In this document: piece after piece, positions 9,811 to 41,957 of the stretch | How positions within the stretch are numbered: the stretch's first letter is position 1 | Layout of the letters: each line of letters begins with the position of its first letter | NCBI GenBank assembly: GCA_022821085.1 | Contig: JAJEEG010000006.1 | Coordinates: 268,405 to 332,404, forward strand | DNA: 64,000 nt | Reading direction: 5' to 3' | Origin: Candidatus Latescibacterota bacterium | GTDB taxonomy: Bacteria > JAAXHH01 | Notes under the pieces: generated by a model | The model's input: only the letters and a program-made list of their open reading frames with translations | Told to the model about the DNA's origin: nothing | Database searches by the model: none | Position numbers and translations under genes: made by a program

Positions 9811-10713
9811 TTATTGTTTCGATCTGTCCACGTGCCTGAGGTAGGTTTCGCTGGCAAAGAACAGGAAATCGTACGATCGCACCCGGTCGCGCCAATTGGT
9901 AGCGAGGTGGCGATATGTAAACACCCCCCTGGATTTCGATGGCAGCGTATCCTCTCCGTCATGTGTCACAACGGGCACAATCACATAATCCAGTTGCTCG
10001 CCGTTCTCGTCTTTCCAGACAACCGTGACAATGACGTCGCTGATTTCCGTACCCGTGTTATTCAATATGGTCCCGTTGCCAGTCACATATATACCGCCTG
10101 GGTCCGTGGAGAAGATTGCGCTTTCCTCCAGCAAGATTAAAGGTACCGGTGATAATTCGTCCCTGTCGTCTTCAGGGCGCAGGTCCCTGACTCTGACAAA
10201 GGCTGTATTGATGAAGAAACCCCAGTCAACATTGGCAATACGATCGTGAACAAGCGTTACATCATGTCGCCCGTTATAAGTGAGCGTTTCTCCTGGTTCG
10301 ACTTCTTTCTCATCTTCCGGTTCGATTATCGTAAAGAATACCCTACCAATCCTGGCGCCCTGGGTGTCATTTAAGAATATCCCCAACTGAATGAAACTAT
10401 CCTTCAGCGTATGGTCGGTTATGTTCTTAATGACGAGATGCATCACGGCATGTTTCTGCCCGTTCTCCGCGGTCTCATAATCGAGAATAAACTCTGATAA
10501 CTCGAAGACATATTCGAACGACAACAGACCGGGGATACCCGGCGGGCCTTGAGGCCCGGCCTCCCCCTGTGGCCCCGGTGGACCGGCAGGTCCCTGAGGG
10601 CCTTCGGTTCCGACCCCCGGAATTCCCTGCGGACCTTGAGGACCTGCCGGGCCTGCCGGGCCCTCACATGCCGAGAAAACAAAGAGCACTGAAAAGAGAA
10701 CCAGGTATCGCAT
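9811..10713 (-). CDS. lipoprotein with N-terminal collagen-like G-X-Y stalk and unknown C-terminal domain
   Basis: Signal peptide plus lipobox (FSAC). About 40 residues of collagen-like repeat follow immediately ([17 protein letters not shown]...GPPGIPG). Confidence 0.7.
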
Positions 10714-13700: not shown

Positions 13701-14390
13701 CAGGACGATACTGGTTGCGGCCTGCAGGACCGTAACGTCGACGGTCTCCTCGATGCTTCCTGATTGCGCGGTTACCTGCGCGGTCCCGTTGCCGGCCGAG
13801 AATACCCATCCGCTGTCGCTGACCGTTGCCACGGCCTCGTCGCTGCTCGACCACGCCACGACGGCCTCTACGATCGGATGTCCGTTCTGGTCCATCGCGG
13901 TCGCGACGACCCGGACCGAATCGCCTATGGCCGTAAACATTGCCTCGCCCGGTTCGACTATCAGTTCGACCACATCCTGCATGACCGCGACTTCGATACT
14001 CGCTGTCAGGGTCAGGCTGCGCACCGTGATGCGGGCCTTTCCCGGACCTCGCGCCGTCAACAGGCCCCTGTTGGAGTCAATAGCGGCAACGCGCACGTTG
14101 CTGCTGGACCATACGAGTGGAATGCCCGTCAATGGAGCGTTTCGCTGATCGAACACCGTGGCGGTCAACTGCCGGGTCTGACCGATCGAGTGGAAAGAGA
14201 CGGACGAGGGCATGATTTCGATCCGGGTCGCCACCGGCGCCGGTGGCGGAGGCGGGGACGTAGGCGGGGACGTAGGCGGTTGGGGCGGGCGAGCAGGCTG
14301 GGAAGGGCTTTCCTTTCCGCAGGCGGCCAGGACGAACAGGATAAGGCAAACGGCCAACCCGCGAGTACAAGGTGACGGGAAAGAGTACAA
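10782..14390 (-). CDS. large surface lipoprotein: Big_2 Ig-like domains + leucine-rich repeats + C-terminal metzincin-like zinc metalloprotease domain
   Basis: Lipobox LAACGKES and a Pro-rich linker. Four or more Big_2 modules (VATRIEI...). About 12 plant-type LRRs (LxxLxLxxNxLTGxIPxELGxL). HELGHNFSLGH zinc-binding motif encoded near 11525-11560. Confidence 0.8.
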   Translation of the reverse strand: MYSFPSPCTRGLAVCLILFVLAACGKESPSQPARPPQPPTSPPTSPPPPPAPVATRIEIMPSSVSFHSIGQTRQLTATVFDQRNAPLTGIPLVWSSSNVRVAAIDSNRGLLTARGPGKARITVRSLTLTASIEVAVMQDVVELIVEPGEAMFTAIGDSVRVVATAMDQNGHPIVEAVVAWSSSDEAVATVSDSGWVFSAGNGTAQVTAQSGSIEETVDVTVLQAATSIVLGPEEAWALAVGDTIRLAAVVLDRNEHPIEEADMEWSSSDESVATVSPDGLVTATGEGSARISVRSGDAEAIARFVVSAEEAGPDLQAMIALYNATDGPNWSDNTNWLSGEPLRTWHGIDTDQEGRIWSLWLPGNEMSGRLPRELGQLSGLTVINLYNNQLSGDIPSALGELKNLKLLYLGLNRLTGEIPAELGLLENLEGLKLENNQLTGAIPAELGRMESLTSLGISNNQLSGEIPAELGRLKKLNDLDLYNNRLTGGIPSELGQISQLTFLSLALNRLTGDIPSEIGQMQKLESLYLTGNSLSGEIPPELGQLEQLKVLSLSNNRLTGGIPSELGRLSHLVILDLGVNRLTEAIPPDLGALEHLEKLQMPWNGLTGEIPPELGRLGQLVELDLRDNELTGAVPESFGGLVSLKKLDLSYNARLTGGIPAALTGLMLEELRLDLTRLCEPVDSVLWEWLNTIPNSRVNTCLEVNVVSSKAVLTQSTQTLGSSVPLVAGEEALLRVFISAPVETPMPPMTARFFLNNAQVHVTNLRTEGKVIPPLIDAGDLEATANAMIPSSVIQPTLEMVIEIDPDGTHDAPVPLPDRLPASGAIPVAVHEIPPMKLTLVPLVWTDNPDEALLAEINGVTSASEYLRPTMTYLPVHELVVDARSPVWVSEEPVDTHSTLLLTRMTRTMDSADWYYLGIVYGGGGRAFRPGLDSVAELHPYYIGHELGHNFSLGHAPCGRPTGIDENYPYPDGNIGVWGYDIWNNELVPPFTPDHMSGCGPPDWTSDYNFRKSMEYRLSGASHRPSVSSFSPSGKSLLVWGGVDEDGALYLEPSFVVDAPPTLPPERGPYRISGAAANGNTLFDMSFAMDEIVCGEGNVEAGGFVFAVPLSADWPAALGRIELSGPGGIVAMSKKGGLDGGRDGGLDSGVEGGSSAALLLDEVTGEIRGFLRDWPAPGTSRVSARRTLPEPGLKVVVSTGVP

Positions 14391-18180: not shown

Positions 18181-19419
18181 ATGACACGCTTGCGTCTCAG
18201 ACTCGTGTGCATTGCGTTACTGCCGGTATCCCTGTTCGTGCTTTCCACCTGCGGCAAGGATAGTTCCACCGCCCCAGGCGCTCCAACACCCCCTGCCCCG
18301 GTACCCGCCAGCATCGAAATCACCCCGGCGTCCGCTACGTTGAACGCCATAGATCAAACCGTTGAGTTGGCTCCAGTAGTACTTGACGAGAATGGTGCTG
18401 AGATCGCCGATGCTTCGGTTACGTGGACGAGTGGCGCCGTGGACGTTGCGACGGTTTCCGATCAAGGCCTGGTCACGGCGGTCAACAACGGGTCCGCGGT
18501 GATCACGGCACAGTCGGACAGTCTTTCGGCATCGGCGAGTATCACCGTCTCGCAGGTGCCGGTCCGTATCGTAATCGAGTTCCCGACCACGGAATCGGGC
18601 CAGGTCATACTGACGGACATGGGCGAGTTAAAACTGGTAGCCACGGTACAGGATAGAAACGGACATCCGGTGGCCGGAGCGGAAGTGACATGGTCGAGCA
18701 GCGATGAATCCGTAGCGACCGTCAACGATCAAGGAGTGGTAAACGAGGTCTCGAGCGGGTTTACTCAGATCACAGCCCGATCGGGAGACCTGTCAGACTC
18801 GATTAATTATGGTGTCTCGTTAAGTGTTGCACTGGGCAGGTTGTATATGGCGACAAATGGTCCGGATTGGACACAAAACACGAACTGGTTGACTGATAAA
18901 CCGTTGGAAGAATGGCACGGTATTACGGTCGGCTTGTTTGGACAGCCTACGATACTGAACCTGAACAACAACAACCTGGGTGGCTCGATTCCGACGGATG
19001 CGGGACAATTGTATTCTCTTGGAGAACTGAATCTGGGATCCAATCGGATTTCGGGCGAGATTCCCGCAACGATAGGAAAGCTGGAATTTCTCGGCAAACT
19101 GAACCTGAGCGACAACCAGTTGTCAGGAGAAATACCCGCCGAGTTGGGACGACTTAAAGAACTGGAGGTTCTGGCACTCGACAGGAACGAGTTGACCGGT
19201 GAGCTTCCGGCCGAACTGGGTAACCTTGCCAACCTCCGGGAATTACACCTGCAGGAAAATGAATCATTGAACGGACCTCTGCCTGATTCGTTTACGAATC
19301 TCGAGCTTCAAACCCTGGACCTGGATGGAACAGCGCTTTGCGTGCCGGCCAACTCGGAGTTCCAGGCCTGGATCGAAGGGATTGATAACGTAACCGCCGC
19401 CACGTGCCCTGATCCGTAG
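18181..19419 (+). CDS. Big_2 + LRR surface lipoprotein (paralog family)
   Basis: Lipobox LSTCGKDS. Two Big_2 domains. LRRs with the conserved C-cap GTALCVP...FQAWI...C. Confidence 0.8.
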   Translation: MTRLRLRLVCIALLPVSLFVLSTCGKDSSTAPGAPTPPAPVPASIEITPASATLNAIDQTVELAPVVLDENGAEIADASVTWTSGAVDVATVSDQGLVTAVNNGSAVITAQSDSLSASASITVSQVPVRIVIEFPTTESGQVILTDMGELKLVATVQDRNGHPVAGAEVTWSSSDESVATVNDQGVVNEVSSGFTQITARSGDLSDSINYGVSLSVALGRLYMATNGPDWTQNTNWLTDKPLEEWHGITVGLFGQPTILNLNNNNLGGSIPTDAGQLYSLGELNLGSNRISGEIPATIGKLEFLGKLNLSDNQLSGEIPAELGRLKELEVLALDRNELTGELPAELGNLANLRELHLQENESLNGPLPDSFTNLELQTLDLDGTALCVPANSEFQAWIEGIDNVTAATCPDP

Positions 19420-22191: not shown

Positions 22192-24750
22192 CTACTCATC
22201 CCCGCCGCTCTGTCGCTGCTGCTCGAACTTCACGTCGGGATGGGCCACCAGGTTGATCCGGAAGTAGAACCCCTTGTTGATGCCGTTCGGCACCCACCGG
22301 AAGGTAAACTCCCAGCAGTGCAGCGGACGGTAGAGGTCCACGCTGTGGGAGACGATTTCCTTGCGGCGGTAGTCGTAGTTGATGGAGTGCTGCACGCGCC
22401 ATTTGTCGGTGACGCGGTTGGTCAGCCTGAGCAGGTCCGTGATGTCGTTCAGGGCGAACCGGTTCGTGGCCCGTATCTCGTGACGGCTGGTGGTGAATCC
22501 CTCCTCGGCGTCTGGATTCGAGCGCCGGATCGAGTAGTGGTGGGAGAGCCGGACCGTCCAGGGACCCTTGACCTGGGAGAACCGCTGGTCGAACCGGTCG
22601 TCGCCGTACCCGCCGTACCCGCCGTAGTCGTTGAACCCGCCGCCCGAAAAGCTGCTGCCCCCGAAGCTGCTCCCGCCCAATCCTCCGCCGGAGTAGTCGT
22701 CATACCCGCCGTAGGCGCCGCCGAACTCGCCGTCCCCGAGTTCATTACCGAATTCGTCCCTGCGCGGCCCCACGAGGTTGAGGGACGTGCTGAGCGTCAT
22801 GCGGTCCAGCCAGGGCCGGCGTAATTCGTCGGTTTCCGGATCGTAGAAATCGTGGTTCAGCGACAGATCAACGTTCAGCCGGCGGCTCGGGATGCGCACG
22901 GTGGTCCGCAGGTCCGCGAACTTCCGGTCCTCGGCCTGGAAATCGTAGGACGTCGACGATTTGACGTACACCAGGTTGTACTTCTTCTCGCGGCCCTCGT
23001 GTTCGGTCCTGGCCTGCAGGATGTTGTTCACGGAGAAACGCATCGTCTTCCGGACGCGCGCCCCCCCGGTCCCCCCGGACTGGGAGAAGTTGATGTCGGG
23101 CGTGACCACGTGCCGAATGGCGTTGAGCCGGCCGATCTTGGGCTGGAAGAGCCCGTAGAGCGTCGTGTTGACCGACATGCCCACCGTGTGGTCTTCCTTC
23201 TGTTCCCAGTTACCCTCGGTTTCCGGGTCGGTATCCTGCTCCCAGGTTCGGCCGTACCGGGCCTGCGGGCGGATCTTCAGCCAGCCCCCGATCTTCTGCG
23301 GCGCACTCAGGGTAAAGTCGTTGTCGAAGGTCCGGATGGATGCGTGCGTGTAGTGGTAACGGGTATCCGGACCCGTATGGGTCGTGTCCCGGTCGCCCCG
23401 TATGTTATTCCTGCGGTTCCGCAGCGTGTTGTTGAAACCGAACATGATAGTGTGGAACCAGCGATCCTCGATCTGCGTGCGGGGCTGGCTGAAGTCGGGC
23501 ATACTGCCCCGCCGCGTCTGCCTGCGGGGCGGCTTGAAGATCGCCTTCGTCCCGAAGCGGAACCGAAGCGTGGTGGTGGGCCGGCTCGGCTGGCCGGTCC
23601 GGCCGCTCGTGGACGTGCTCAGGTTGAGGCTGTTCCGCCCGAACTTCTTGTCGATCGCGAAGGATGAACGCGTCGTGGACCGCAGGAGTCCGGGGTCCGT
23701 CCCCCGCGTCGTCGAATGCAGGTACTGCAGCGATTGGGCGAAGTTGCCCTGCCCGCGGATCGTCAGGTCCGGGATCACTTCCTGCCGGTGCCGGGCGGTC
23801 ACGTCCCAGCCGGTCGTCGTCCCGTCGAAGCCTCTCCGCCACGAGCCGCTCGCCGAGCCCGTGAGCCGGCGGTCCTGCCGGTACTGGAACCTTTGCCTTA
23901 GCAGGAACCCGGTCTTGGCCTCGATGTCGGCTGTGGTCTTCATGTCGAAGTACTCGTTCGGCGCCCAGTAGTAGCCCAGGTTGCGCAGGTACCGGCCTTC
24001 CTCCACGCCGCTGCCGTAGTTCGGCACCGTGAGCCCGGACTGCCGGCCTTGCTTCACCGAGAAGACGTAGACGGGGAGATAGACTATGGGTATGCCCATG
24101 ATGTAGCCCGTCACGTTCCGGACGACCGCCTTGTCTTCGGGGACGACTTTCGCCTCGCCCATTTTCAGATAGTAGTGCAGGTGGTTCGGGTTGTCGCAGG
24201 TGGTGTAGGTGCCGTCGTGGATCTCGAAGGTCCGGTCGGCGTTGAGCGTGATGAGTTCGCCGTTGAAGAACCCTTCCTGGTACTGGGTGCGGCCCTTCCA
24301 GATCTGCCCTTCCCCGGTTTTCATGTCGTACTGCATGCGGTCCCCGACCACGACGTTCATCTCGTCCTGCAAACGGGGATAGGTATTGGTCTCGGGATCG
24401 ATGTCCGGCGACGGGGGCAGGAAGTCCGCGGTCAGCAGTTCGGAGTAGGTATGGAATCGCAGTCGCCCGGCCGTCAGCTCGACGTCGCCGTACTTCACAT
24501 AGGCGCTACCGATCATCACCATCATGGTGTCGGGGAATACGTACTCGATGCGTTTCGCATTGTAGTCGATCGGTGGCAGTCCGGTCGTATCGGCCTCGGC
24601 GCCGGCCCCGATCCCCATGCCGCCGGAAGGGAACTGCGCGAAGGCCGCCCCGGGAGCACGGCCGGCCAGCAGCAGACCGGCCGCCAGCAGAAAGATCGAA
24701 AGCCGGCCGGCCGGCAATAAACAGGCCTGCAATAAACACACCGGCAGCAA
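22192..24750 (-). CDS. LptD (OstA)-like outer membrane protein
   Basis: Signal peptide. OstA-like N-terminal beta-jellyroll region (ADTMMVMIGSAYVKYGDVELTAGRLRF). Long beta-barrel-like remainder with a Gly/Tyr-rich insert. Family assignment is tentative. Confidence 0.55.
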   Translation of the reverse strand: MLPVCLLQACLLPAGRLSIFLLAAGLLLAGRAPGAAFAQFPSGGMGIGAGAEADTTGLPPIDYNAKRIEYVFPDTMMVMIGSAYVKYGDVELTAGRLRFHTYSELLTADFLPPSPDIDPETNTYPRLQDEMNVVVGDRMQYDMKTGEGQIWKGRTQYQEGFFNGELITLNADRTFEIHDGTYTTCDNPNHLHYYLKMGEAKVVPEDKAVVRNVTGYIMGIPIVYLPVYVFSVKQGRQSGLTVPNYGSGVEEGRYLRNLGYYWAPNEYFDMKTTADIEAKTGFLLRQRFQYRQDRRLTGSASGSWRRGFDGTTTGWDVTARHRQEVIPDLTIRGQGNFAQSLQYLHSTTRGTDPGLLRSTTRSSFAIDKKFGRNSLNLSTSTSGRTGQPSRPTTTLRFRFGTKAIFKPPRRQTRRGSMPDFSQPRTQIEDRWFHTIMFGFNNTLRNRRNNIRGDRDTTHTGPDTRYHYTHASIRTFDNDFTLSAPQKIGGWLKIRPQARYGRTWEQDTDPETEGNWEQKEDHTVGMSVNTTLYGLFQPKIGRLNAIRHVVTPDINFSQSGGTGGARVRKTMRFSVNNILQARTEHEGREKKYNLVYVKSSTSYDFQAEDRKFADLRTTVRIPSRRLNVDLSLNHDFYDPETDELRRPWLDRMTLSTSLNLVGPRRDEFGNELGDGEFGGAYGGYDDYSGGGLGGSSFGGSSFSGGGFNDYGGYGGYGDDRFDQRFSQVKGPWTVRLSHHYSIRRSNPDAEEGFTTSRHEIRATNRFALNDITDLLRLTNRVTDKWRVQHSINYDYRRKEIVSHSVDLYRPLHCWEFTFRWVPNGINKGFYFRINLVAHPDVKFEQQRQSGGDE

Positions 24751-25348: not shown

Positions 25349-25837
25349 ATGGCAAGAATCGTATTTCTTTTGATTGCCACGCTTGCATGTGGTGATGCAT
25401 ACGCCCAGTTGGACATGAACCTGGGCGTGTCCGGCAGCAGGCCCTATTCTTGTCTTACGGATCTCACCGATTCAGGGATCGGGTACGGCGTTCGGGTCGA
25501 AATGGCTGCGGATTTGAACGACCGGTTTCAGTTCATTGGCAACTTGTCGTATGATCGGCACAACAGCGACTATTCGTCCCTCCCGGTCATGGCCGGGTTG
25601 AGGATGTCCACCACATCGGATGACGACATGTTCTGTTACGTCCAGGCCACGGCGGGAAGCTCGTACCGGGTCATGGGCGACGAAGAAAGCAGGACGACTT
25701 GGATTGTGAACGGCGGTATCGGTACGGTGTGGAACAGGCTGGGCGCGGTTGTGGAGTACAACATTTCAGACGATGCAGCCGACAAGTGGAGTTGGGTATC
25801 AGTTCGTACATTCTTGAGGTTACCACTCGGTTTTTAG
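25349..25837 (+). CDS. small outer-membrane beta-barrel protein
   Basis: Signal peptide (LLIATLACGDAYAQ). Alternating amphipathic strands. Ends in an aromatic residue (LPLGF). SD gaggagat upstream. Confidence 0.6.
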   Translation: MARIVFLLIATLACGDAYAQLDMNLGVSGSRPYSCLTDLTDSGIGYGVRVEMAADLNDRFQFIGNLSYDRHNSDYSSLPVMAGLRMSTTSDDDMFCYVQATAGSSYRVMGDEESRTTWIVNGGIGTVWNRLGAVVEYNISDDAADKWSWVSVRTFLRLPLGF

Positions 25838-25943: not shown

Positions 25944-27398
25944 ATGCATTACTTCATAGTAGTACTGATTGCGTTCGCTCTCAGTATGTATGGATGCGAA
26001 GGTAAGACGGGTCCGGCGGGTCCGACCGGTGCCGCAGGCGCCGCAGGTCCGGCAGGTCCGGCTGGCCCGCAGGGTTCGACTGGTCCGGCAGGTCCGGCAG
26101 GTCCGGCAGGCCCCCAGGGTCCGGCTGGTGCTGATGGTGCCGATGGTGCCGCAGGTCCGGCAGGTCCGGCAGGTCCGGCAGGTCCGGCAGGTCCGGCAGG
26201 TCCGCAAGGTGAGAAGGGCGACACCGGCGAGCAGGGTCCGGCGGGTGCAGGCGCCGATCCGGGTGCTATCCAGGACATCGTTGATGGCGTCATCGGAACT
26301 GGTGTCCTGGCGGACATTCACCACATCCTGCTGTTGAAGGATGGTGAAACAGATCCTAAAAAAGGTATGGCGATAGATGTTGCAGGCGTGGCAGTTGGCG
26401 CCGAGATCGCCAGCGTGAACGTTGGCGTACTTGTAGGGGCATCCACATCTTATGTGGCCAAGGTTGCGACCGTCAGTGGACAGCCGATTCCCGCTACGCT
26501 TACCTGGACATCCGACGACGAGGAAGTAGCCTCGGTGGATGACGGTACGATTACAGGTAATAGAAGGGGATCAGCGACGGTAACCATGGCCGTAGATGGT
26601 CGTGGCATTGAAGTTGATTTCAAGGTAACCGTCCACGACGTTGTCAAGGGTATCATCGCTATTGCTGCCAGTGATACCAGGCTTGCAGTGGGTGATGAGG
26701 TTACAGTTAACGCTACTGCCTATGATGCCGCACAGACCGATGCTGCGGGCGCCGAAGGTAACGAGGTTCCCAATATAACCTTTACCTGGATGAGCTCCAA
26801 CGAAGCCGTGGCAACCGTGGATGAAGATGGCGTGGTGACTGCCAAGGGCGCCGGAAGTGCTGATATTACGGCCCACGTAGGCGACGTTAAGAGTAACAAG
26901 GTCGGAGTCACTGTATTCGACGTTCTGACTGTCGAACGCAGGATACGTGTAACCAACCTTCCCATCTCAGGGACGTATATCGCTGTCGGAGATACGCTTA
27001 TTTCTGACAGCAGCGTAGTTGCAGATGGATCTGAATCTGGTAGCGTCGGCGCTATCAATGTGGTTGTCGAGCAGTTCGATCCGACTTCTGGTGCAAGTGG
27101 AGCTTGGGCAGCTGTTACTGGCACTGATACTATGGTGAAGTACACAAGTCTGGATACAGACGTGATTACTTTTGCCGAAACCACCTCCAATACTGATGCC
27201 ACTCCCTATATGGGTACGGCTAGTATTGCTACCGATGGCAGCGGTAACGCCAATATGCCTGCGTTTACACACGATAATAGCGCAAACGGTAAGGTGGCAG
27301 GTCGAGGCACTGCCAGAATTGAGATTTCCACCCAATATGCTGATTCGCGCTATATTGAGATCATAGTATCAATTCCCTCTACCCACAAGGCCCCCTAA
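25944..27398 (+). CDS. lipoprotein with collagen-like stalk followed by Big_2 Ig-like domains
   Basis: Lipobox YGCEG followed immediately by about 95 residues of G-X-Y repeats ([10 protein letters not shown]...), then Big_2-type domains. Contains a perfect 9-bp tandem repeat. Confidence 0.8.
26151..26204. repeat. perfect 9-bp tandem repeat (gcaggtccg x6) encoding (AGP)n inside the collagen-like gene
   Basis: Six identical head-to-tail units, with three more related units at 26086-26112. Confidence 0.9.
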
Positions 27399-27518
27399 CC
27401 ACAGGATGAGTGGCTATACATTGATGAAGAAAGGTTATTGCCACTCAACAGGTCTTGGAGGGTAGCAGAGCAGAAACGCACGACAAATACAGAATACACA
27501 GTTGAACCGTGTATCTTC

Positions 27519-27580
27519 CCGTCCGTCCTTAGTAGGAGCTTTAGCGACCGAACAGGGCGGACGGTTTTTTTTGTGTTTTT
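27519..27580 (+). terminator. probable rho-independent terminator after the collagen-Big_2 gene
   Basis: ccgtccg...cggacgg stem followed by ttttttttgtgttttt. Confidence 0.45.
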
Positions 27581-27787
27581 CCGCCAGATCCCTCCCTCTT
27601 GACTAAGCCCCTCATGAAAGTTACTTTCTGCGTCGCGGCGTTTCATGGTTCCGGTTGCGTTATGCCGACGTGCCGACATACCCGGTAGACCGGGAATCCT
27701 TGCGCCGTGGTTTGGTATTGCATTGAATGCACCGTTTTGTGGAACGAATTTCATAGCCGATAGCGGCAACATCCGGAGGTCTCCATC

Positions 27788-28711
27788 GTGCTACGCCACC
27801 TCGCCAGGCTGTTACTCTTTCTTGTATTTCTAGGCTGTGAGGGACCGACGGGTCCGGAGGGTCCGGCCGGACCGGCGGGGCAGGCCGGCGCCGCCGGTCC
27901 GCAGGGTATCCAGGGTCCGGCGGGACCGCAGGGCGAACCCGGGGAGACGCTGGACTGGTCGGACGTAATCGAGACCGAGAATCTGGGGGACGCGGTCTAC
28001 GCGATCGGGGTGCAGATCCAGGGGAAGAACTACGTGCTGGGTTCGGGTTTCGTCGCACACTTCACAAATGCCGTCTGGACCAATGCCCGCGTCGTTCAGG
28101 CCGTCCTCATTTCGACCACGTTTATCGACCACCTCAACCCGCGGGCCTTTGCCGTCAAGTCGGGCACGGAGATTGGCGGCGCCGACACGTACTGGCTGGA
28201 GAACTACTGGGTTCATCCCGACTACGACGGCACAGCCGGCTCGCCCGACGCGGCCCTGCTCATCATCGACGCGAACCTGACGGACCTGCCGTTCTTCCTG
28301 CCCAGGGACCAGGCCCAGGGCCTGCGCGCGGGACAGCCCATCGGTACGATCGGGTTTCCGGAGGAAGAAACGGGCGAGTCCGTCACGGTCCCCATCGCCA
28401 CGTTCAATGGCGGCACGATCGGCGCGCTGAGGCCCTTCGAAGACGCGGTCCCCACGCCGGCGAACAGCCGGATCATCCAGCATGACCTGGACAATTCCGG
28501 CCGAACGAGCGGCAGTCTCATTTTTGATCACTCGGGATACATCGTCGGGATGAATTTCGCCGGGATCTTCCGGGTCGCCTACGACGCCCGGACCGGGGAG
28601 CCCACGCGCGTTCCGTCGGGAAACCCCGGCCTCGCCGTCCGCGTGGACGAGCTCTGGCGCCTCTACGACCTGGCAAGGGGGAGTGGGCGCCAGGTCGTGC
28701 TACTTCCCTAG
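27788..28711 (+). CDS. lipoprotein with collagen-like stalk and trypsin-like (S1/Trypsin_2) domain, possibly non-canonical
   Basis: Lipobox LGCEG followed by about 35 residues of G-X-Y repeats. Then GSGFV...TNARVV (Arg where the catalytic His is expected), DAALLIID (Asp box) and GRTSGSLIF (Ser box). Confidence 0.65.
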   Translation: MLRHLARLLLFLVFLGCEGPTGPEGPAGPAGQAGAAGPQGIQGPAGPQGEPGETLDWSDVIETENLGDAVYAIGVQIQGKNYVLGSGFVAHFTNAVWTNARVVQAVLISTTFIDHLNPRAFAVKSGTEIGGADTYWLENYWVHPDYDGTAGSPDAALLIIDANLTDLPFFLPRDQAQGLRAGQPIGTIGFPEEETGESVTVPIATFNGGTIGALRPFEDAVPTPANSRIIQHDLDNSGRTSGSLIFDHSGYIVGMNFAGIFRVAYDARTGEPTRVPSGNPGLAVRVDELWRLYDLARGSGRQVVLLP

Positions 28712-29069
28712 CAGGACTTTCCGCACCTAGCCTTCAGATCCTACCCAGCCTTCAAACCCTTCCCGGATAGATGGAACGGCGAGGCGGAACTTTCGTAACA
28801 CAGGATTCCGGCCTGATCGCTAACGATCCGGAAGCGCTGGCGGTATGTGTTTGTGCCTTCCTCCCCTCCCATGCTCAAATAACCACATTTTAACCCCATA
28901 ACATCACGCTTAAATTATATGTCAAGGTATTGAAACAGATGATACCTGGCTATGGGTGATTTTATGTTGTAAATCCAAATATGATGCATACTTTGATCAT
29001 TCCACTTTGCAGAATGTTAGTCGAAAACTCGAATGTAATGCCGACCACACCGGTCCCGGGGAACGTCCT

Positions 29070-30968
29070 ATGAATATCCGTCCTTTGAAGCGTCTGTACA
29101 TAACGACCTTCTCAAGTTTCAGTACTGTATTTTTGATCACGGCCTGTCTGGTCCTGGTCACCTGCGGCAAGGACAGCACGACGAAGCCTGCGGCGCCTGA
29201 ACCGCCTCCGCCCGCAACACCCGCGCCGCCGCCCCCGGCGCCCGTACCTACCCGGATTACGATCACCCCTTCGTCCGTTTCGCTCAACTCCGTTGGCCAG
29301 ACCATGCCCTTGACGGCCAAGGTCTTCGATCAGAACAACGCGGTGCTCGGCAGTGCAACAGTTTCGTGGTCCAGCAGCGACGAGGGCGTGGCGACGGTCG
29401 GCAGCCGGGGGTTGGTCACCGCCGTCTCGAACGGTACGGCGACCATCACGGCGAGTTCAGGCATCGCTTCTGCGACCGCGGCCGTCACGGTGATGCAGTC
29501 CGCAAGCCGCATCGTCCTTGAGTCGTCCTCGGCAACGCTTGTGTCCCTCGGGGAAACCGTGCAACTCACCGCCACTGTGCAGGATGCGAACGGTCAAGCA
29601 GTAGACGGCGCGGCTGTAACCTGGTCGAGCAGCGACGAGGGCGTGGCGACAGTCGGCGCCCAGGGCTTGGTCACGGCAGTCTCGAACGGCAGCGCCACGA
29701 TCACGGCCAGATCGGGCAGCGTTTCTGCGACCGCGGCCGTCACGGTCATGCAAACCGCCCACGGAATCGTCCTTGAACCGCAGATGGCGACGCTCACCAG
29801 GGCCGGCGAGACCGTGCAGCTGGCCGCGGCCGTACTGGACCTGAACGAACAGCCCGTGGACGGCGCCACCGTCTCATGGGCCAGTAGCGACCCGGGCGTC
29901 GCGGCGGTCGACGATGATGGACTGGTGACGGCGGTTGCGAACGGCAGCGCCGGGATCACCGCGTCTTACGGCGACATATCCGCCACGGCCCGGATCGAAG
30001 TGGAGATCGCCGACCCGGGCGATAGAGACGCGTTGATTGCGCTGTATGTCGCCCTTGACGGACCGAACTGGACGTATAATACCAACTGGCTGTCCGACCT
30101 GCCTCTGGGTGAGTGGTATGGCGTGGGCACCGACGACACTGGAAGAGTCACCTGGCTGAGTCTCGCCTTCAACGAACTCAGCGGCGCCATTCCTTCGGAA
30201 CTGGGCAATCTGGCCAAACTGGAGGAACTCAATCTTAGCCAGAATCGGTTGTCGTGCGTGATTCCACCTGAATTGGGGAACCTGACCAACCTGTACGGGC
30301 TCTACCTTTACTCCATTCCGATCTTGCCGGCGGTCTTTCCGCCGGAGTGGGATCCTGTCCCCGACCCGGCTTGCCGCATCCCTGCCGAGTTGGGGAACCT
30401 GACCAACCTGGAGGAACTGAGGCTTGGCCTCAGAACGCTGTCTGGCCGCATTCCTGCCGAGTTGGGGAACCTGACCAACCTGCAGGTACTGGATCTCCGC
30501 TTCAACGCATTGTCCGGCGGCGTGCCGCCGGAACTGGGGAAGCTGCCCAACCTGTATTCGTTGAATCTCGGTTTCAACGCGTTATCTGGCAGCATCCCTG
30601 CCGAGTTGGGGAATCTGGCCAATCTGATGGAACTGAACCTGACCCTCAACGCGTTGTCGGGCAGCATCCCGCCTGAGTTGGGCAACCTGGCCGGCCTGGA
30701 AGTGCTGGAACTTGGCTTAAATGCGTTGTCCGGCAGTGTCCCGCCTGAGTTGGGAAACCTCTCCGAACTCACATATCTTTCTTTGGTTTACAATGAGGAC
30801 CTGTCGGGTCCGCTGCCCGCCACGTTCACCAACCTCAACTACCTGGAGGGGTTGGATCTGTCTTATACCGGCTTGTGCGTGCCGCCGGAACCTGCGTTCC
30901 GGGCGTGGCTGGAGCGGTTTCAGGCTGCCGATCAAGTGGTGTACTGCGGAGGGATGCAGGGCGGTTAA
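29070..30968 (+). CDS. Big_2 + LRR surface lipoprotein (paralog family)
   Basis: Start placed at the ATG (29070) that gives the signal peptide/lipobox LVTCGKDS. Pro-rich linker. Four Big_2 domains (VPTRITI...). About 9 LRRs. C-cap GLCVPPEPAFRAWLERF...C. Confidence 0.75.
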   Translation: MNIRPLKRLYITTFSSFSTVFLITACLVLVTCGKDSTTKPAAPEPPPPATPAPPPPAPVPTRITITPSSVSLNSVGQTMPLTAKVFDQNNAVLGSATVSWSSSDEGVATVGSRGLVTAVSNGTATITASSGIASATAAVTVMQSASRIVLESSSATLVSLGETVQLTATVQDANGQAVDGAAVTWSSSDEGVATVGAQGLVTAVSNGSATITARSGSVSATAAVTVMQTAHGIVLEPQMATLTRAGETVQLAAAVLDLNEQPVDGATVSWASSDPGVAAVDDDGLVTAVANGSAGITASYGDISATARIEVEIADPGDRDALIALYVALDGPNWTYNTNWLSDLPLGEWYGVGTDDTGRVTWLSLAFNELSGAIPSELGNLAKLEELNLSQNRLSCVIPPELGNLTNLYGLYLYSIPILPAVFPPEWDPVPDPACRIPAELGNLTNLEELRLGLRTLSGRIPAELGNLTNLQVLDLRFNALSGGVPPELGKLPNLYSLNLGFNALSGSIPAELGNLANLMELNLTLNALSGSIPPELGNLAGLEVLELGLNALSGSVPPELGNLSELTYLSLVYNEDLSGPLPATFTNLNYLEGLDLSYTGLCVPPEPAFRAWLERFQAADQVVYCGGMQGG

Positions 30969-39527: not shown

Positions 39528-41957
39528 CTACGGTCCGGAACAGAATTGCACACCGGAACTACTTCGTATACCGCTGATCCACGCCCGGAAATCCGCGGTC
39601 GGGGGTACACACAGGCCGGTGTTTTGCAGCGTCAGATCCTGCATGAACTCGAGCCCGGAAAACGAATCCGGCAATGGTCCGGATAGTCCGGGATTATCGG
39701 CGAGCCAGAGTAACCTGAGGCCGGTGAGTTGTCCCAGTTCGTCCGGGATCGTTCCGGTCAGCCGGTTATCGTCGAAGGTCAGCGACAACAGGTTGTTGAG
39801 TTTACCAAATTCCGGTGGGATTGTCCCGGACAGCCGGTTGTCCTTGAACCAGAGCTCCCTCAAGTTCGAAAGCTGTGCCAGTTCCGGCGGGATGTTCCCG
39901 GTCAGTTCGTTCCGGTCGAAATATAGCAATTCGAGCTTGGATAGCTGTCCCAGTTCCGGCGGAATGTTCCCGGTCAATATGTTCCGATTGAAATCCAGGA
40001 AGGTGAGCTCGGAGAGTTGAGCCAATTCCGGTGGTATGGGTCCCGTCAATCGATTTTTGGCAAGCGACAGATGGGTGAGTGCGGTGAGTTGGGCCAATTC
40101 CAACGGGATATCCCCCGTCAGCCTGTTGCTGCTGAGCCCCAGATGAGTAAGGTCAACGAGTTGCCCCAATTCCGGCGGAATGATTCCCGTCAGGTTGTTG
40201 CCTGTAAGCGTCAGGCGTTCAAGGGCGGTCAATTGTCCCAGTTCCGGCGGGATGTTCCCCGTCAACTCGTTTCCGGCAAGAGCAAGGACTGTCAGGTTCA
40301 CCAACTGCCCGATCTCCGGTGGAATATCTCCCGACAACTGGCTGTTGAGTATACTCAGCCAGGTAAGGTTGGTCAGTTGCCCGATTTCCGGCGGAATGTT
40401 CCCCGTCAGATCGGTGCTGTCGAGACTCAGAGTACCCAATTGGGTCAGTTGCCCCAGTTCCGGCGGGATCCCGCCCGTCAACCCGTTGCCGGACTGCCCC
40501 AGCCAGATGAGGTTGGCGAGCAGCCCGAATTCCGGTGGCAGGTTACCCGTCAGATCGTTGTACCTGAGGTCCAGCACGGCAAGCGAGGCGAGATAGCACA
40601 GTTCAGCGGGAAGGGGGCCCTGGAGATTGTTGCGCGGCAGTTGCAGGCGCACCACCTCTCCGGATGGAGTTGCGATGACGCCATGCCAGTCGCTAAGAGG
40701 TGCATCGCTTAACCAGTTGTCGTTGTTGGTCCATTCGTCCCCGTTCGTGCTGCGGTACAGGATCGCCAGGGCCTCGCGGTCCGGAACCGCTTCCTTCACA
40801 GTGACGGTCGCCACGGAAGTGGTCTCGCCTGAACGGGCGGTGATCTCCACGGTGCCGCCCGCAACGGCGGTCACCAGGCCCTGTTCATCGACCGTTGCGA
40901 TCGTTTCGTCACTGCTTGCCCAGGTCACGTCCGCGCCGTCTATCCTGTGCCCCATATGATCGAGTACCGTGGCCGTGAGCTGTGCCGTATCGCCGGCCGC
41001 CGCCAGGATCGTTTCCACCGGATCGACTACGATGCTGGCGGGCGACTGCATGACGGTAACGTCGCTGCTTACCGTTAGATCGCCTGAGGTGGCCGTGATG
41101 GTTGCGGCGCCGTTGGCCACCGCGGTCACGAGACCGTCAGTGCTCACCGTCGCCACGGAAGCGTCGCTGCTTTGCCAGGTCACGCCGGCCCCTTCGATGG
41201 CCCGGTTATTCGGATCGACCACCATTGCGATGAATTGGACGGTTTCGCCAAAGGCCGTGAGGGTGGCCTCAGGCGGATCGATCACGATACCGGTGGGCGT
41301 CTGCATGACCCTGACGGTGACGCCTTGCTCGGTACTGCCCGACCGGGCGGTTATCCTGGTTGTGCCGTTGCCTGTCGAGGTAACCAGTCCGGTAGTGCTC
41401 ACGCGTGCCACTTCCGTATCGCTGCTCCGCCAGGTCACGTTGGCCCCTTCGATCGTCTGCCCGTTGCGGTCCTGTACTGTTGCGGTGAGCTGCACCGTCT
41501 CCCCGATGGCCGTCAAGGTGGCCTCCGTGGGTTCGATGGTGATCCTGCCGGCGGTCTGTACCACTTTTATTTCAACATCTCGCGATACGCCGCCGGACCT
41601 CGCCGTAATGCGGATTATCCCGTACGCGACCGCCGTCGCCAGGCCGCCCGAACTGACCGACACGATCCTGGGGTCCGCACTGGTCCAGGTTACGGAAGCG
41701 CCTGTCATTACAGCGTTATTCTGATCGAAGACCTGGGCCGTCAGTTGGACCGTCTGGCCGATCGCGTTCAGCGTCGCCGAGGCCGGCGTGATGGTAATGC
41801 GGGTCGCAACCGGAGTCGGCGGCGGGGGCGGGGGCTGCGTCGGGGCCGGTGGCGACGGCGCGGGAGCGGTGGCGCTGTCCTTTCCGCAAGCGGCGATCAG
41901 CGCAATCAGCGTGCCGAATGCGAGCGCGGTAAAGGTATTCAACAGGATTCGTGACAC
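39528..41957 (-). CDS. Big_2 + LRR surface lipoprotein (paralog family)
   Basis: Lipobox LIAACGKDS and a Pro-rich linker. Five Big_2 domains (VATRITI...). About 12 LRRs. C-cap GLCVPPTADFRAWISGI...C. Confidence 0.8.
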   Translation of the reverse strand: MSRILLNTFTALAFGTLIALIAACGKDSATAPAPSPPAPTQPPPPPPTPVATRITITPASATLNAIGQTVQLTAQVFDQNNAVMTGASVTWTSADPRIVSVSSGGLATAVAYGIIRITARSGGVSRDVEIKVVQTAGRITIEPTEATLTAIGETVQLTATVQDRNGQTIEGANVTWRSSDTEVARVSTTGLVTSTGNGTTRITARSGSTEQGVTVRVMQTPTGIVIDPPEATLTAFGETVQFIAMVVDPNNRAIEGAGVTWQSSDASVATVSTDGLVTAVANGAATITATSGDLTVSSDVTVMQSPASIVVDPVETILAAAGDTAQLTATVLDHMGHRIDGADVTWASSDETIATVDEQGLVTAVAGGTVEITARSGETTSVATVTVKEAVPDREALAILYRSTNGDEWTNNDNWLSDAPLSDWHGVIATPSGEVVRLQLPRNNLQGPLPAELCYLASLAVLDLRYNDLTGNLPPEFGLLANLIWLGQSGNGLTGGIPPELGQLTQLGTLSLDSTDLTGNIPPEIGQLTNLTWLSILNSQLSGDIPPEIGQLVNLTVLALAGNELTGNIPPELGQLTALERLTLTGNNLTGIIPPELGQLVDLTHLGLSSNRLTGDIPLELAQLTALTHLSLAKNRLTGPIPPELAQLSELTFLDFNRNILTGNIPPELGQLSKLELLYFDRNELTGNIPPELAQLSNLRELWFKDNRLSGTIPPEFGKLNNLLSLTFDDNRLTGTIPDELGQLTGLRLLWLADNPGLSGPLPDSFSGLEFMQDLTLQNTGLCVPPTADFRAWISGIRSSSGVQFCSGP

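What the first reader, a model, noticed from the sequence alone, without database searches (positions are those of the whole stretch)
28085..28520. Trypsin-like domain with Arg in place of the catalytic His
In 27788..28711 the S1/Trypsin_2-type motifs are recognisable: GSGFV, then 8 residues, then TNARVV (the Arg codon cgc is at 28088-28090), plus an Asp box DAALLIID and a Ser box GRTSGSLIF. The Arg stands where TNAHV normally supplies the His of the catalytic triad. The protein may be a pseudo-protease or binding module, or it may use a shifted His (AHF, 9 residues upstream).
Basis: partly seen in the sequence, partly recalled or inferred. Interest (0 to 1): 0.5.

Follow-up and report, generated by a model that had tools for sequence, protein, structure and literature searches.

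The report
Collagen-stalked trypsin-like lipoprotein lacking catalytic His
This gene encodes a membrane-anchored protein with a short collagen-like stalk and a trypsin-fold head that has lost two parts of its cutting machinery yet is still kept by selection, so it most likely works as a non-cutting binding protein in a marine symbiont-type bacterium.

Summary
ORF 27788..28711 (+, 307 aa) is a lipoprotein signal, 12 collagen GXY triplets and a Trypsin_2 domain. Arg101 (cgc 28088-28090) sits exactly where about 200 homologues and HtrA/Deg structures have the catalytic His; no register shift is possible. A second lesion was missed: Arg239 replaces the oxyanion-hole Gly (chymotrypsin 193). That G-to-R change defines a monophyletic, syntenic ortholog clade next to lptD. 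In that clade the His changed about 13 times independently (to R, T, S, K, Q). In the rest of the family, with three times the tree length, it never changed. Asp154 and Ser241 never change anywhere. The protein is not a dead gene: dN/dS is 0.24 against its closest relative, which shares both lesions. The clade median is 0.25, against 0.20 for intact-triad paralogues. The identical protein occurs in at least 4 independent contigs. His91 (the "shifted His") is equally frequent with or without the catalytic His and is mostly not His in the intact-triad paralogues, so that idea has no support. An in-frame TAG (28709-28711) also cuts off the family's conserved C-terminal tail. Best reading: a pseudo-protease binding head, a new variant of a known kind (compare MamO). 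Activity was not tested.

The parts
27775..27779 (+). Shine-Dalgarno-like GGAGG, 8 nt upstream of the GTG start
   Evidence: Read directly from the sequence. The same start context is present in L001.
27788..28711 (+). Whole ORF, 307 aa, GTG start, TAG stop: collagen-stalked trypsin-like lipoprotein
   Evidence: The identical protein is called on 4 contigs. dN/dS against L001 is 0.24.
27788..27838 (+). Signal peptide with lipobox (LFLVFLG-C17); Cys17 is the predicted lipidated N-terminus of the mature protein
   Evidence: Hydrophobic N-terminus read from the translation. Cys17 is invariant in 27 homologues. No dedicated lipoprotein predictor was run.
27842..27949 (+). Collagen-like region: 12 uninterrupted Gly-X-Y triplets (residues 19-54)
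   Evidence: Pfam Collagen PF01391 scores 24.5 bits, E = 2.3e-5, just under the 27.2 gathering score. Homologues carry PF01391 hits. The periodicity was read directly.
27950..28681 (+). Trypsin-fold (PA clan) globular domain, residues 55-298
   Evidence: Pfam Trypsin_2 covers residues 85-255. The AlphaFold2 model has pLDDT 94.6 and pTM 0.91. Foldseek finds DegP, Deg5, HTRA1, DegS and V8 protease, with TM-scores mostly 0.53-0.64 by query length.
28058..28060 (+).
   Evidence: Not family-conserved: 46% His in G-type paralogues, and 96% in both His-bearing and His-less clade members.
28088..28090 (+). Arg101 (cgc) at the catalytic His position (chymotrypsin His57 equivalent)
   Evidence: It is one transition away from the CAC found in His-bearing orthologues.
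28247..28249 (+). Asp154 (gac), catalytic Asp equivalent, retained
   Evidence: Asp in 206/206 aligned family members. Zero changes on the tree. Aligned to the Asp of DVAVL/DIALI in Deg1/HTRA1.
28502..28504 (+). Arg239 (cga) at the oxyanion-hole Gly position (chymotrypsin Gly193 equivalent); signature of the clade
   Evidence: Aligned to the first G of GNSGGP in HtrA proteases. It is Gly in 103 G-type paralogues and in 129/134 remote representatives, and Arg in 92% of the clade.
28508..28510 (+). Ser241 (agc), nucleophile Ser equivalent, retained
   Evidence: Ser in 201/202 family members. Zero changes on the tree. Aligned to the Ser of GNSGGP.
28709..28711 (+). In-frame TAG stop that replaces the Glu of the family's conserved PEQDYPH tail motif
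   Evidence: The same TAG is in L001, and P0001 and P0003 end at the same residue. TAG is the commonest ordinary stop in the window's Pfam-supported genes, 8 of 17.
28712..28798 (+). Relic of the conserved C-terminal tail, still in frame (QDFPHLAFRSYPAFKPFPDRWNGEAELS, then TAA at 28796-28798); probably no longer translated
   Evidence: Compared with L001 there are 6 differences in 84 nt, 4 of them non-synonymous. That is too few to decide whether it is still constrained.
25944..27398 (+). Upstream syntenic partner: lipoprotein signal + collagen-like region + Big_2 domains
   Evidence: Pfam. It is conserved upstream of the orthologue in most syntenic loci, for example L001, L003, L004, L007, L009, L010, L012 and L025.
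25349..25837 (+). Small outer-membrane beta-barrel protein gene, part of the conserved neighbourhood
   Evidence: Pfam OMP_b-brl E = 4.5e-6, 27.4 bits, just under the 28.7 gathering score. Syntenic in L001-L013 and L025.
22192..24750 (-). lptD-like gene marking the conserved chromosomal locus
   Evidence: Pfam LptD_2 E = 2.2e-50. Syntenic in relatives.
28956..30968 (+). Downstream Big_2 + leucine-rich-repeat surface protein
   Evidence: Pfam. Present downstream in L001, L004 and L081.

Best explanation
The gene encodes a cell-envelope lipoprotein. After signal-peptide cleavage at Cys17, a short collagen-like stalk (12 GXY triplets, expected to form a trimer) carries a trypsin-fold head. The head belongs to a small family of collagen-stalked Trypsin_2 proteins found mainly in MAGs of marine-invertebrate-associated bacteria, and most members have an intact His-Asp-Ser triad. 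The window's copy belongs to one orthologous clade, always next to lptD, whose ancestor replaced the oxyanion-hole Gly (chymotrypsin 193) with Arg. After that change the catalytic His stopped being protected and was replaced about 13 separate times. In the window's lineage it was replaced by Arg through a single CAC-to-CGC transition. The fold, the Asp and the Ser are still kept by purifying selection. The most likely function is therefore non-catalytic: the former substrate cleft serves as a binding site on a stalk (pseudo-protease, adhesin or receptor-like head), and Arg101 probably pairs with the buried Asp154. Shown here: domain architecture, residue equivalences, clade-specific release of the His site, purifying selection, synteny. 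Inferred: loss of proteolytic activity, trimerisation, surface exposure, a binding role, and the Arg101-Asp154 pairing.
For: Architecture.

Residue equivalence to the HtrA/Deg triad and the oxyanion Gly. The high-confidence model places residue 101 at the N-terminus of the helix after the TNA strand. D154 lies just before a strand and S241 in the loop before a strand, as in the chymotrypsin fold. Fold matches to DegP/HTRA1/DegS/V8.

Family tally: with Gly at 193, His is present in 103/103 sequences. With Arg/His/Leu/Gln at 193, His is lost in 25 of 96.

Tree of 181 unique sequences: the clade is monophyletic. The His site shows 13 changes inside the clade (tree length 7.19) and 0 outside (20.75). 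If the 13 changes fell at random in proportion to tree length, all falling inside has probability about 0.257^13, roughly 2e-8. Only four sites are invariant outside but variable inside: 101, 191, 212 and 239.

All replacements are polar or basic (R, K, T, S, Q).

Purifying selection: window against L001, both carrying Arg101, Arg239 and the TAG, gives dN/dS 0.24 at dS 0.20. Clade median 0.25. His/His pairs 0.23; pairs both lacking His 0.26; intact-triad paralogues 0.20.

The same protein occurs in 4 contigs.

Precedent: the HtrA-like pseudoprotease MamO has Glu at position 193. The authors state that a non-Gly residue there is strongly disfavoured in the active conformation and that Gly193 is critical for catalysis (PMC4794232).
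Against: No activity measurement exists for any family member.

Asp154 and Ser241 are never lost in 86 clade members although the His changed 13 times. A purely non-catalytic head might be expected to lose them sometimes, so some residual or altered chemistry cannot be excluded.

About three quarters of clade members keep the His, so the G193R change alone may not abolish activity.

The binding partner is unknown. Trimerisation and surface exposure are inferred from domain types only.

Confidence: 0.65

Rival explanations
1. The protein is still a working serine protease with a non-canonical catalytic apparatus. Ser241 and Asp154 would act with another general base: the nearby His91, another conserved His such as His232 or His248, or an Arg. 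The Arg at position 193 might help to stabilise the oxyanion.
For: Ser241 and Asp154 are absolutely conserved even in His-less members. His232 is 100% conserved in the clade against 54% in the other paralogues, and His248 is 92-96% conserved everywhere. Overall constraint on the protein is hardly relaxed: dN/dS 0.25 against 0.20.
Against: The replacements at residue 101 are chemically heterogeneous (R, T, S, K, Q), which fits dispensability rather than a new catalytic residue. His91 is no more frequent in His-less than in His-bearing members and is mostly not His in active-looking paralogues. No new His column appears in His-less sequences. By alignment to HtrA, His91 lies in a hairpin turn, and His232 and His248 lie 9 residues before and 7 after the Ser, not at triad positions. 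A non-Gly residue at 193 is reported as incompatible with the active oxyanion-hole conformation (PMC4794232).
Confidence: 0.12
2. The gene is a decaying pseudogene: loss of the catalytic His, loss of the oxyanion Gly and a premature TAG are successive steps of inactivation with no remaining function.
For: There are three lesions in one gene, including an in-frame nonsense codon that removes a tail conserved across the family. Clearly fragmented copies of the family exist in other genomes: L061, L068, L075.
Against: dN/dS is 0.24 between the window and L001, which already share all three lesions, so selection acted after the lesions arose. The 307-codon frame, RBS and lipobox are intact. The same truncated protein is found in four contigs, and the truncation is shared by diverged relatives P0001, P0003 and L001. 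His-less members show the same constraint as His-bearing ones.
Confidence: 0.1
3. The clade consists of regulated or zymogen-like proteases. Arg239 locks the oxyanion hole until a partner or substrate activates it. The His-less members act as non-catalytic subunits of mixed trimers with intact-triad paralogues, held together by the collagen stalk.
For: Genomes of relatives carry several paralogues with intact triads (for example, L001 and L044 come from one MAG). All have a similar N-terminal lipobox and collagen module that could co-assemble. HtrA proteases switch between inactive and active oxyanion-hole states (PMC4794232).
Against: There is no evidence for co-assembly. Stalk lengths differ between paralogues (12 to more than 25 triplets). 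The paralogues are at distant loci. The window itself holds only one trypsin-like gene.
Confidence: 0.08

Closest known systems
MamO of magnetotactic bacteria (HtrA/trypsin-like pseudoprotease; PMC4794232)
   Same: Both are bacterial Trypsin_2/HtrA-type folds retained without a working active site. Both have a non-Gly residue at chymotrypsin position 193 (Glu in MamO, Arg here). Both arose beside intact paralogues. In magnetotactic bacteria pseudoproteases evolved independently several times, and here the catalytic His was lost repeatedly.
   Different: MamO keeps His and Asp and has Thr for the nucleophile; here Ser and Asp are kept and His is lost. MamO is fused to a TauE transporter domain and binds metal through a di-His motif. 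The window protein has a lipobox, a collagen stalk and no such motif tested. Sequence relatedness is only at the fold/family level.
HtrA/DegP/DegQ/DegS/Deg1/Deg5/HTRA1 serine proteases (MEROPS S1C)
   Same: These are the best sequence-profile and structural matches. They share the motif layout GSGF...TNxHV, D[IV]A[LV]L and GNSGGP-like, and they form trimers through the protease domain (established knowledge).
   Different: No PDZ domain is present. Identity is 16-22% and TM-score about 0.6. The catalytic His and the oxyanion Gly are replaced. A lipobox, a collagen stalk and a family-specific C-terminal tail are present instead.
Bacterial collagen-like surface proteins (Scl1/Scl2 of Streptococcus, BclA of Bacillus, Lcl of Legionella)
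   Same: Short GXY repeat stalk attached to a globular head on a cell-envelope protein. NCBIfam collagen-adhesin models give weak local hits to the GXY region.
   Different: Those proteins are anchored by LPXTG or to the exosporium and have V-domain or C1q-like heads. Here the anchor is a lipobox Cys directly followed by the stalk, and the head is a trypsin fold. Scores are far below the family cut-offs, so this protein is not a member.
Eukaryotic serine-protease homologues without activity (haptoglobin, hepatocyte growth factor, azurocidin, insect clip-domain SPHs) - from general knowledge, not tested here
   Same: Chymotrypsin-fold domains that lost triad residues and act as binding modules.
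   Different: They belong to S1A and are eukaryotic and secreted, with different lesions. No evolutionary link beyond the clan.
CspA/CspC pseudoproteases of Clostridioides difficile (PMC7200643, PMC6636752; found)
   Same: Bacterial protease homologues with degenerate triads that are kept for a signalling or binding role.
   Different: They have the subtilisin fold (clan SB), not the trypsin fold, and work in spore germination.

Membership tests
Pfam Trypsin_2 (PF13365) / clan PA trypsin fold | Significant match to the family HMM over its full length | tested here: met
   E = 1.1e-9, 39.6 bits against a gathering score of 27.6; profile positions 1-144 of 144.
Pfam Trypsin_2 (PF13365) / clan PA trypsin fold | Double beta-barrel chymotrypsin fold | tested here: met
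   AlphaFold2 model pLDDT 94.6, pTM 0.91, all-beta with a C-terminal helix. Foldseek probability 1.00 to DegP, Deg5, HTRA1, DegS and V8 protease.
Active serine endopeptidase of clan PA | Catalytic His (chymotrypsin His57 equivalent) | tested here: not met
   Arg101 stands at the column that is His in 180 of 205 aligned family sequences and in Deg1/HTRA1.
Active serine endopeptidase of clan PA | Catalytic Asp (Asp102 equivalent) | tested here: met
   Asp154; 206/206 in the family; aligned to the HtrA Asp.
Active serine endopeptidase of clan PA | Nucleophile Ser in a G-x-S-G motif (Ser195 and oxyanion-hole Gly193) | tested here: not met
   Ser241 is present, but the Gly two residues before it is Arg239: GRTSGS against GGTSGS/GNSGGP.
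Active serine endopeptidase of clan PA | Measurable peptidase activity | not testable with these tools
   Needs recombinant protein and assays.
HtrA/DegP family (S1C) | One or more C-terminal PDZ domains | tested here: not met
   No PDZ hit in Pfam at E <= 1. The TIGR02037 degP_htrA_DO model scores 12.6 bits against a 416 cut-off.
Bacterial collagen-like proteins | Uninterrupted Gly-X-Y repeats long enough for a triple helix | tested here: inconclusive
   12 perfect triplets (residues 19-54). Pfam Collagen scores 24.5 bits, just under the 27.2 gathering score. Homologues with 12 to about 25 triplets carry the Pfam hit. Triple-helix formation was not tested.
Bacterial lipoproteins | Signal peptide ending in a lipobox with invariant Cys | tested here: inconclusive
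   The sequence LFLVFLG-C17 follows a charged N-terminus. Cys17 is invariant in 27 homologues. No dedicated predictor (SignalP/LipoP) was available.
Pseudoenzyme (pseudo-protease) | Homologue of an enzyme family lacking residues essential for catalysis, yet maintained by purifying selection | tested here: met
   His and oxyanion Gly are replaced. dN/dS is 0.24 after the lesions arose, and the clade median is 0.25.
Pseudoenzyme (pseudo-protease) | Demonstrated lack of catalysis and a demonstrated non-catalytic function | not testable with these tools
   Requires biochemistry and genetics.

The most novel reading that the evidence does not exclude
The clade marked by Arg at the oxyanion-hole position is a previously undescribed class of surface-displayed, collagen-stalked, trimeric 'protease-shaped' receptors. 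Sponge- or coral-associated bacteria would use them to bind host matrix or host or phage proteins without cleaving them, retaining the Ser and Asp to grip a ligand. Alternatively, it is a serine hydrolase that works without a His, using an Arg-containing active site. Either would be a new functional type for the bacterial trypsin fold.
Probability: 0.12. Interest if true: 0.7.

Novelty: new variant of a known kind. Interest (0 to 1): 0.45.

Why it matters
Pseudoenzymes are well documented in eukaryotes but sparsely in bacteria. This locus offers a clean natural series. One orthologous gene at one chromosomal position first lost the oxyanion-hole Gly. It then lost the catalytic His about a dozen independent times while staying under selection and keeping Asp and Ser. 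That ordering, with the first lesion releasing the second site, can be tested directly by reverting residues, and it shows how a protease turns into a binding module. The family itself (lipobox, collagen stalk, trypsin head, conserved C-terminal tail) is uncharacterised. It is concentrated in MAGs from sponges, corals and marine samples across several phyla. It sits among leucine-rich-repeat and Ig-like surface proteins, which are thought to mediate host association, so it may be relevant to symbiont-host contact. As an isolated fact, a trypsin-like domain lacking His is not surprising.

Tried and rejected
1. Register shift or misalignment: rejected. The WTNA[H/R]V block is ungapped in about 200 sequences and aligns to TNxHV of solved HtrA proteases.

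2. Sequencing error: rejected. The identical protein occurs on four contigs, and the same Arg is in relatives.

3. Shifted His91: rejected on conservation grounds.

4. TAG as a recoded sense codon: rejected. TAG is the commonest ordinary stop among the window's Pfam-supported genes, 8 of 17.

5. C-terminal tail as a general sorting signal: rejected. Among ORFs of the 80 fetched loci and the window, the motif occurs only in family members or their fragments.

6. First structure prediction with 27 full-length sequences: poor (pLDDT 54) and not used. It was replaced by a 149-sequence domain alignment.

7. PDB search with the full-length profile: swamped by collagens. It was repeated with the domain only.

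8. Correlation between tail loss and His loss: the regular expression failed. A count by eye from its listing (about 6 of 22 His-less against about 7 of 66 His-bearing members) is suggestive only and is not claimed.

9. Rfam scan and promoter/terminator scan around the gene: nothing found.

10. Literature searches for this architecture in sponge symbionts: no description found.

11. Asp235 as a trypsin-like S1 Asp189 equivalent: not claimed. The position is Asp in only about half of the remote representatives, and the register to S1A enzymes is uncertain.

12. Active-site geometry could not be measured because model coordinates are not exposed.

Full report
**What is there**

The finding lies in ORF 27788..28711 on the + strand (GTG start, 307 aa, TAG stop). 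A GGAGG box sits 8 nt upstream. The product has three parts.
- A hydrophobic signal peptide ends in a lipobox (LFLVFLG-Cys17). The Cys is invariant in 27 homologues.
- Twelve uninterrupted Gly-X-Y collagen triplets span residues 19-54. Pfam Collagen scores 24.5 bits, just under the gathering score.
- A globular domain matches Pfam Trypsin_2 end to end: residues 85-255, E = 1.1e-9, 39.6 bits against a 27.6 cut-off.

**Is the Arg really at the catalytic His?**

Yes, on four lines of evidence.
- A search of 5.8 billion proteins returned 477 relatives. The best 120 nearly all combine Collagen and Trypsin_2.
- In the alignment the block around residue 101 has no gaps and the consensus is WTNAH.
- A domain-only family profile searched against PDB sequences aligns this block to GSGF...TNYHV of Deg1 and TNAHV of HTRA1. 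It aligns SPD154 to DVAVL/DIALI, and GG-T-S241-GS to G-N-S-GGP.
- An AlphaFold2 model built on 149 sequences is confident (pLDDT 94.6, pTM 0.91). It has the expected topology: residue 101 at the start of the helix after the TNA strand, D154 just before a strand, and S241 in a loop before a strand.

Foldseek finds DegP, Deg5, HTRA1, DegS, MucD and V8 protease with probability 1.00. TM-scores are mostly 0.53-0.64 and identity 16-22%.

The identical protein is called on four contigs from at least three data sets. The nearest species-level relative, L001, has the same Arg. Error is therefore excluded.

The same alignment puts Arg239 on the first Gly of GNSGGP, the oxyanion-hole Gly (chymotrypsin 193).

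In 207 aligned family sequences this position is Gly in 103, and Arg, His, Leu or Gln in about 96. Among 150 remote representatives it is Gly in 129 of 134, and the catalytic position is His in 115 of 117.

The MamO study states that non-Gly residues at 193 are strongly disfavoured in the active conformation and that this Gly is critical for catalysis. MamO, an HtrA-like pseudoprotease, has Glu there (PMC4794232).

**Evolutionary pattern**

A neighbour-joining tree of 181 unique sequences shows that the Arg-193 proteins form one clade of 86 tips.

| Site | Changes inside the clade (tree length 7.19) | Changes outside (tree length 20.75) |
|---|---|---|
| 101 (catalytic His) | 13 | 0 |
| 154 (Asp) | 0 | 0 |
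| 241 (Ser) | 0 | 0 |
| 239 (oxyanion Gly) | 6 | 1 |

- Fitch parsimony gives these counts. A smaller tree also gave 13 changes at the His site.
- If the 13 changes were spread in proportion to branch length, all of them falling inside the clade would have a probability of about 2e-8.
- Site 101 is among the more variable quarter of sites in the clade.
- Only four sites are fixed outside the clade but variable inside: 101, 191 (the P of GFPGE), 212 and 239.
- The replacements are R (most often), T, S, K and Q, all polar or basic.
- The window, L001, L005b and L010 carry CGC, one transition from the CAC of His-bearing orthologues.
- The clade is also a positional orthologue group. The arrangement lptD(-), a small OMP beta-barrel gene, a collagen-Big_2 lipoprotein gene, then the trypsin-like gene recurs, in whole or in large part, in L001-L013 and L025.

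**Is it a dead gene?**

No. The window and L001 share Arg101, Arg239 and the TAG, so their divergence post-dates all three lesions. Their dN/dS is 0.24 (dN 0.048, dS 0.20, 253 codons).

| Comparison (pairs with dS below 1.5) | Pairs | Median dN/dS |
|---|---|---|
| Arg-193 clade, all pairs | 87 | 0.25 |
| Clade, both keep His | 23 | 0.23 |
| Clade, both lack His | 16 | 0.26 |
| Intact-triad paralogues | 50 | 0.20 |

Constraint on the protein as a whole is almost unchanged.

**The shifted-His idea**

His91 is His in 96% of clade members both with and without the catalytic His. It is His in only 46% of the intact-triad paralogues, where Tyr is the commonest replacement family-wide. No column gains a His specifically in the His-less proteins. 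In the HtrA alignment His91 lies in the hairpin between two strands. I reject this alternative on present evidence.

**The truncated tail**

Nearly all family members end in a conserved tail, PEQDYPHxxYxPFPxNWNGETxLP. Among ORFs of the fetched loci and the window, this tail occurs only in this family.

In the window the Glu codon of PEQ is TAG (28709-28711). The tail continues in frame for 28 codons to TAA at 28796-28798 (QDFPHLAFRSYPAFKPFPDRWNGEAELS). L001 has the same TAG, and P0001 and P0003 end at the same residue.

TAG is the commonest ordinary stop in the window, 8 of 17 genes. The relic differs from L001 at 6 of 84 nt, 4 of them non-synonymous. That is too few to tell whether it is still read. 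The role of the tail is unknown.

**Context**

- The window (62% GC) is chromosomal DNA of a diderm bacterium, with lptD and an OMP gene.
- It carries three lipoproteins with the same N-terminal module (lipobox Cys-Glu-Gly followed by GXY repeats) but different heads: 9811..10713(-), 25944..27398(+) and 27788..28711(+).
- It carries four Big_2 plus leucine-rich-repeat proteins.
- The 80 related loci come from MAGs labelled Latescibacterota, Gemmatimonadota, Longimicrobiales, Spirochaetia and Chloroflexota, often with several paralogues per genome.
- From my own knowledge of the naming, many isolate names (APA, IRC, COS, RHO, Plut, SB) and the OX/OY/OZ chromosome records correspond to sponge and coral metagenome projects (compare).
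- Sponge-associated Latescibacterota are reported to be rich in eukaryote-like repeat proteins (PMC8163846).
- The family is small. In 1.84 billion protein representatives, 583 reach E <= 1e-3 and 48 reach E <= 1e-30.
- I found no paper describing this architecture.

**Interpretation**

The best-supported reading is a pseudo-protease: a stalked, probably trimeric envelope protein whose trypsin-fold head is kept for something other than cleavage, most simply ligand binding in the former substrate cleft. Loss of the oxyanion Gly came first and released the His.

The unbroken conservation of Asp154 and Ser241 is the main unexplained point. It may reflect structural roles, for example the buried Asp pairing with Arg, Lys, Thr, Ser or Gln at residue 101. 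It may reflect ligand contacts. It leaves some room for residual or unusual chemistry.

The rivals are weaker but not excluded without biochemistry: non-canonical catalysis, a decaying pseudogene, or an inactive subunit of mixed trimers.

**Verdict**

The 'pseudo-protease' interpretation is supported and the 'shifted His' interpretation is not. This is a new variant of a known phenomenon. It is of moderate interest, mainly as a tidy natural experiment in how a protease active site decays stepwise while the protein is retained.

Noticed in passing
window 28709-28798: An in-frame TAG replaces the Glu of the family's conserved C-terminal tail. The tail (28 codons, ending in TAA at 28796-28798) is still intact in frame. 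L001 has the same TAG, and P0001 and P0003 end at the same residue. It is unknown whether the tail is ever translated and what it does.
   Followed up: partly
window 9811-10713 (-), 25944-27398 (+), 27788-28711 (+): Three lipoproteins share the same N-terminal module (hydrophobic signal, lipobox Cys, Glu-Gly, then collagen GXY repeats) but carry different heads: an unannotated beta-rich domain, Big_2 domains, and the trypsin fold. This looks like a modular 'collagen-stalk lipoprotein' design.
   Followed up: partly
window 10782-14390 (-), 18181-19419 (+), 28956-30968 (+), 39528-41957 (-): Four large Big_2/Big_1 plus leucine-rich-repeat proteins lie in 64 kb, one of them with a Peptidase_M66 hit. 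These are eukaryote-like repeat proteins of the kind reported as enriched in sponge symbionts.
   Followed up: no
window 27399-27787: The 389-nt intergenic region upstream of the gene is very similar to L001 over the 200 nt compared by eye, as similar as the coding sequence. It has no Rfam match and no sigma-70-like promoter hit. It may hold an unrecognised regulatory element or a non-sigma-70 promoter.
   Followed up: partly
L061 4323-5527; L068 4710-7345; L075 6285-7053: Family copies are split into two or more ORF fragments, apparently frameshifted or truncated pseudogenes. True gene decay therefore does occur in this family elsewhere.
   Followed up: no
L031, L033, L039, L044, L049 (two family ORFs each within about 3 kb); L005 2715-3690 and 5823-7074: Tandem duplications of family members. 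In L005 the two clade copies sit about 2 kb apart, and one kept His (P0056) while the other has Arg (P0081).
   Followed up: partly
P0257 (remote representative, 399 aa): A distant relative has all three triad positions replaced (VTSARV, SPAVA, EGADGS), a fully degenerate homologue outside the window's clade.
   Followed up: no
loci L030, L035, L048, L055, L060, L062, L065, L067, L069, L070: Family members are present in MAGs labelled Spirochaetia, Chloroflexota and Dehalococcoidia as well as Latescibacterota and Gemmatimonadota. This suggests lateral spread among co-resident bacteria.
   Followed up: no
window 27830-28531 (-) and 27660-28058 (-): Long ORFs on the opposite strand (233 and 132 aa) overlap the gene. 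They are Arg/Pro-rich shadow frames typical of GC-rich coding DNA, not genes.
   Followed up: no
family alignment, window residues 191 and 212: Besides residues 101 and 239, only Pro191 (GFPGE motif, changing to Leu) and residue 212 (Ser/Gly) are fixed in the rest of the family but variable in the clade. They may mark further parts of the former active site or substrate cleft.
   Followed up: no
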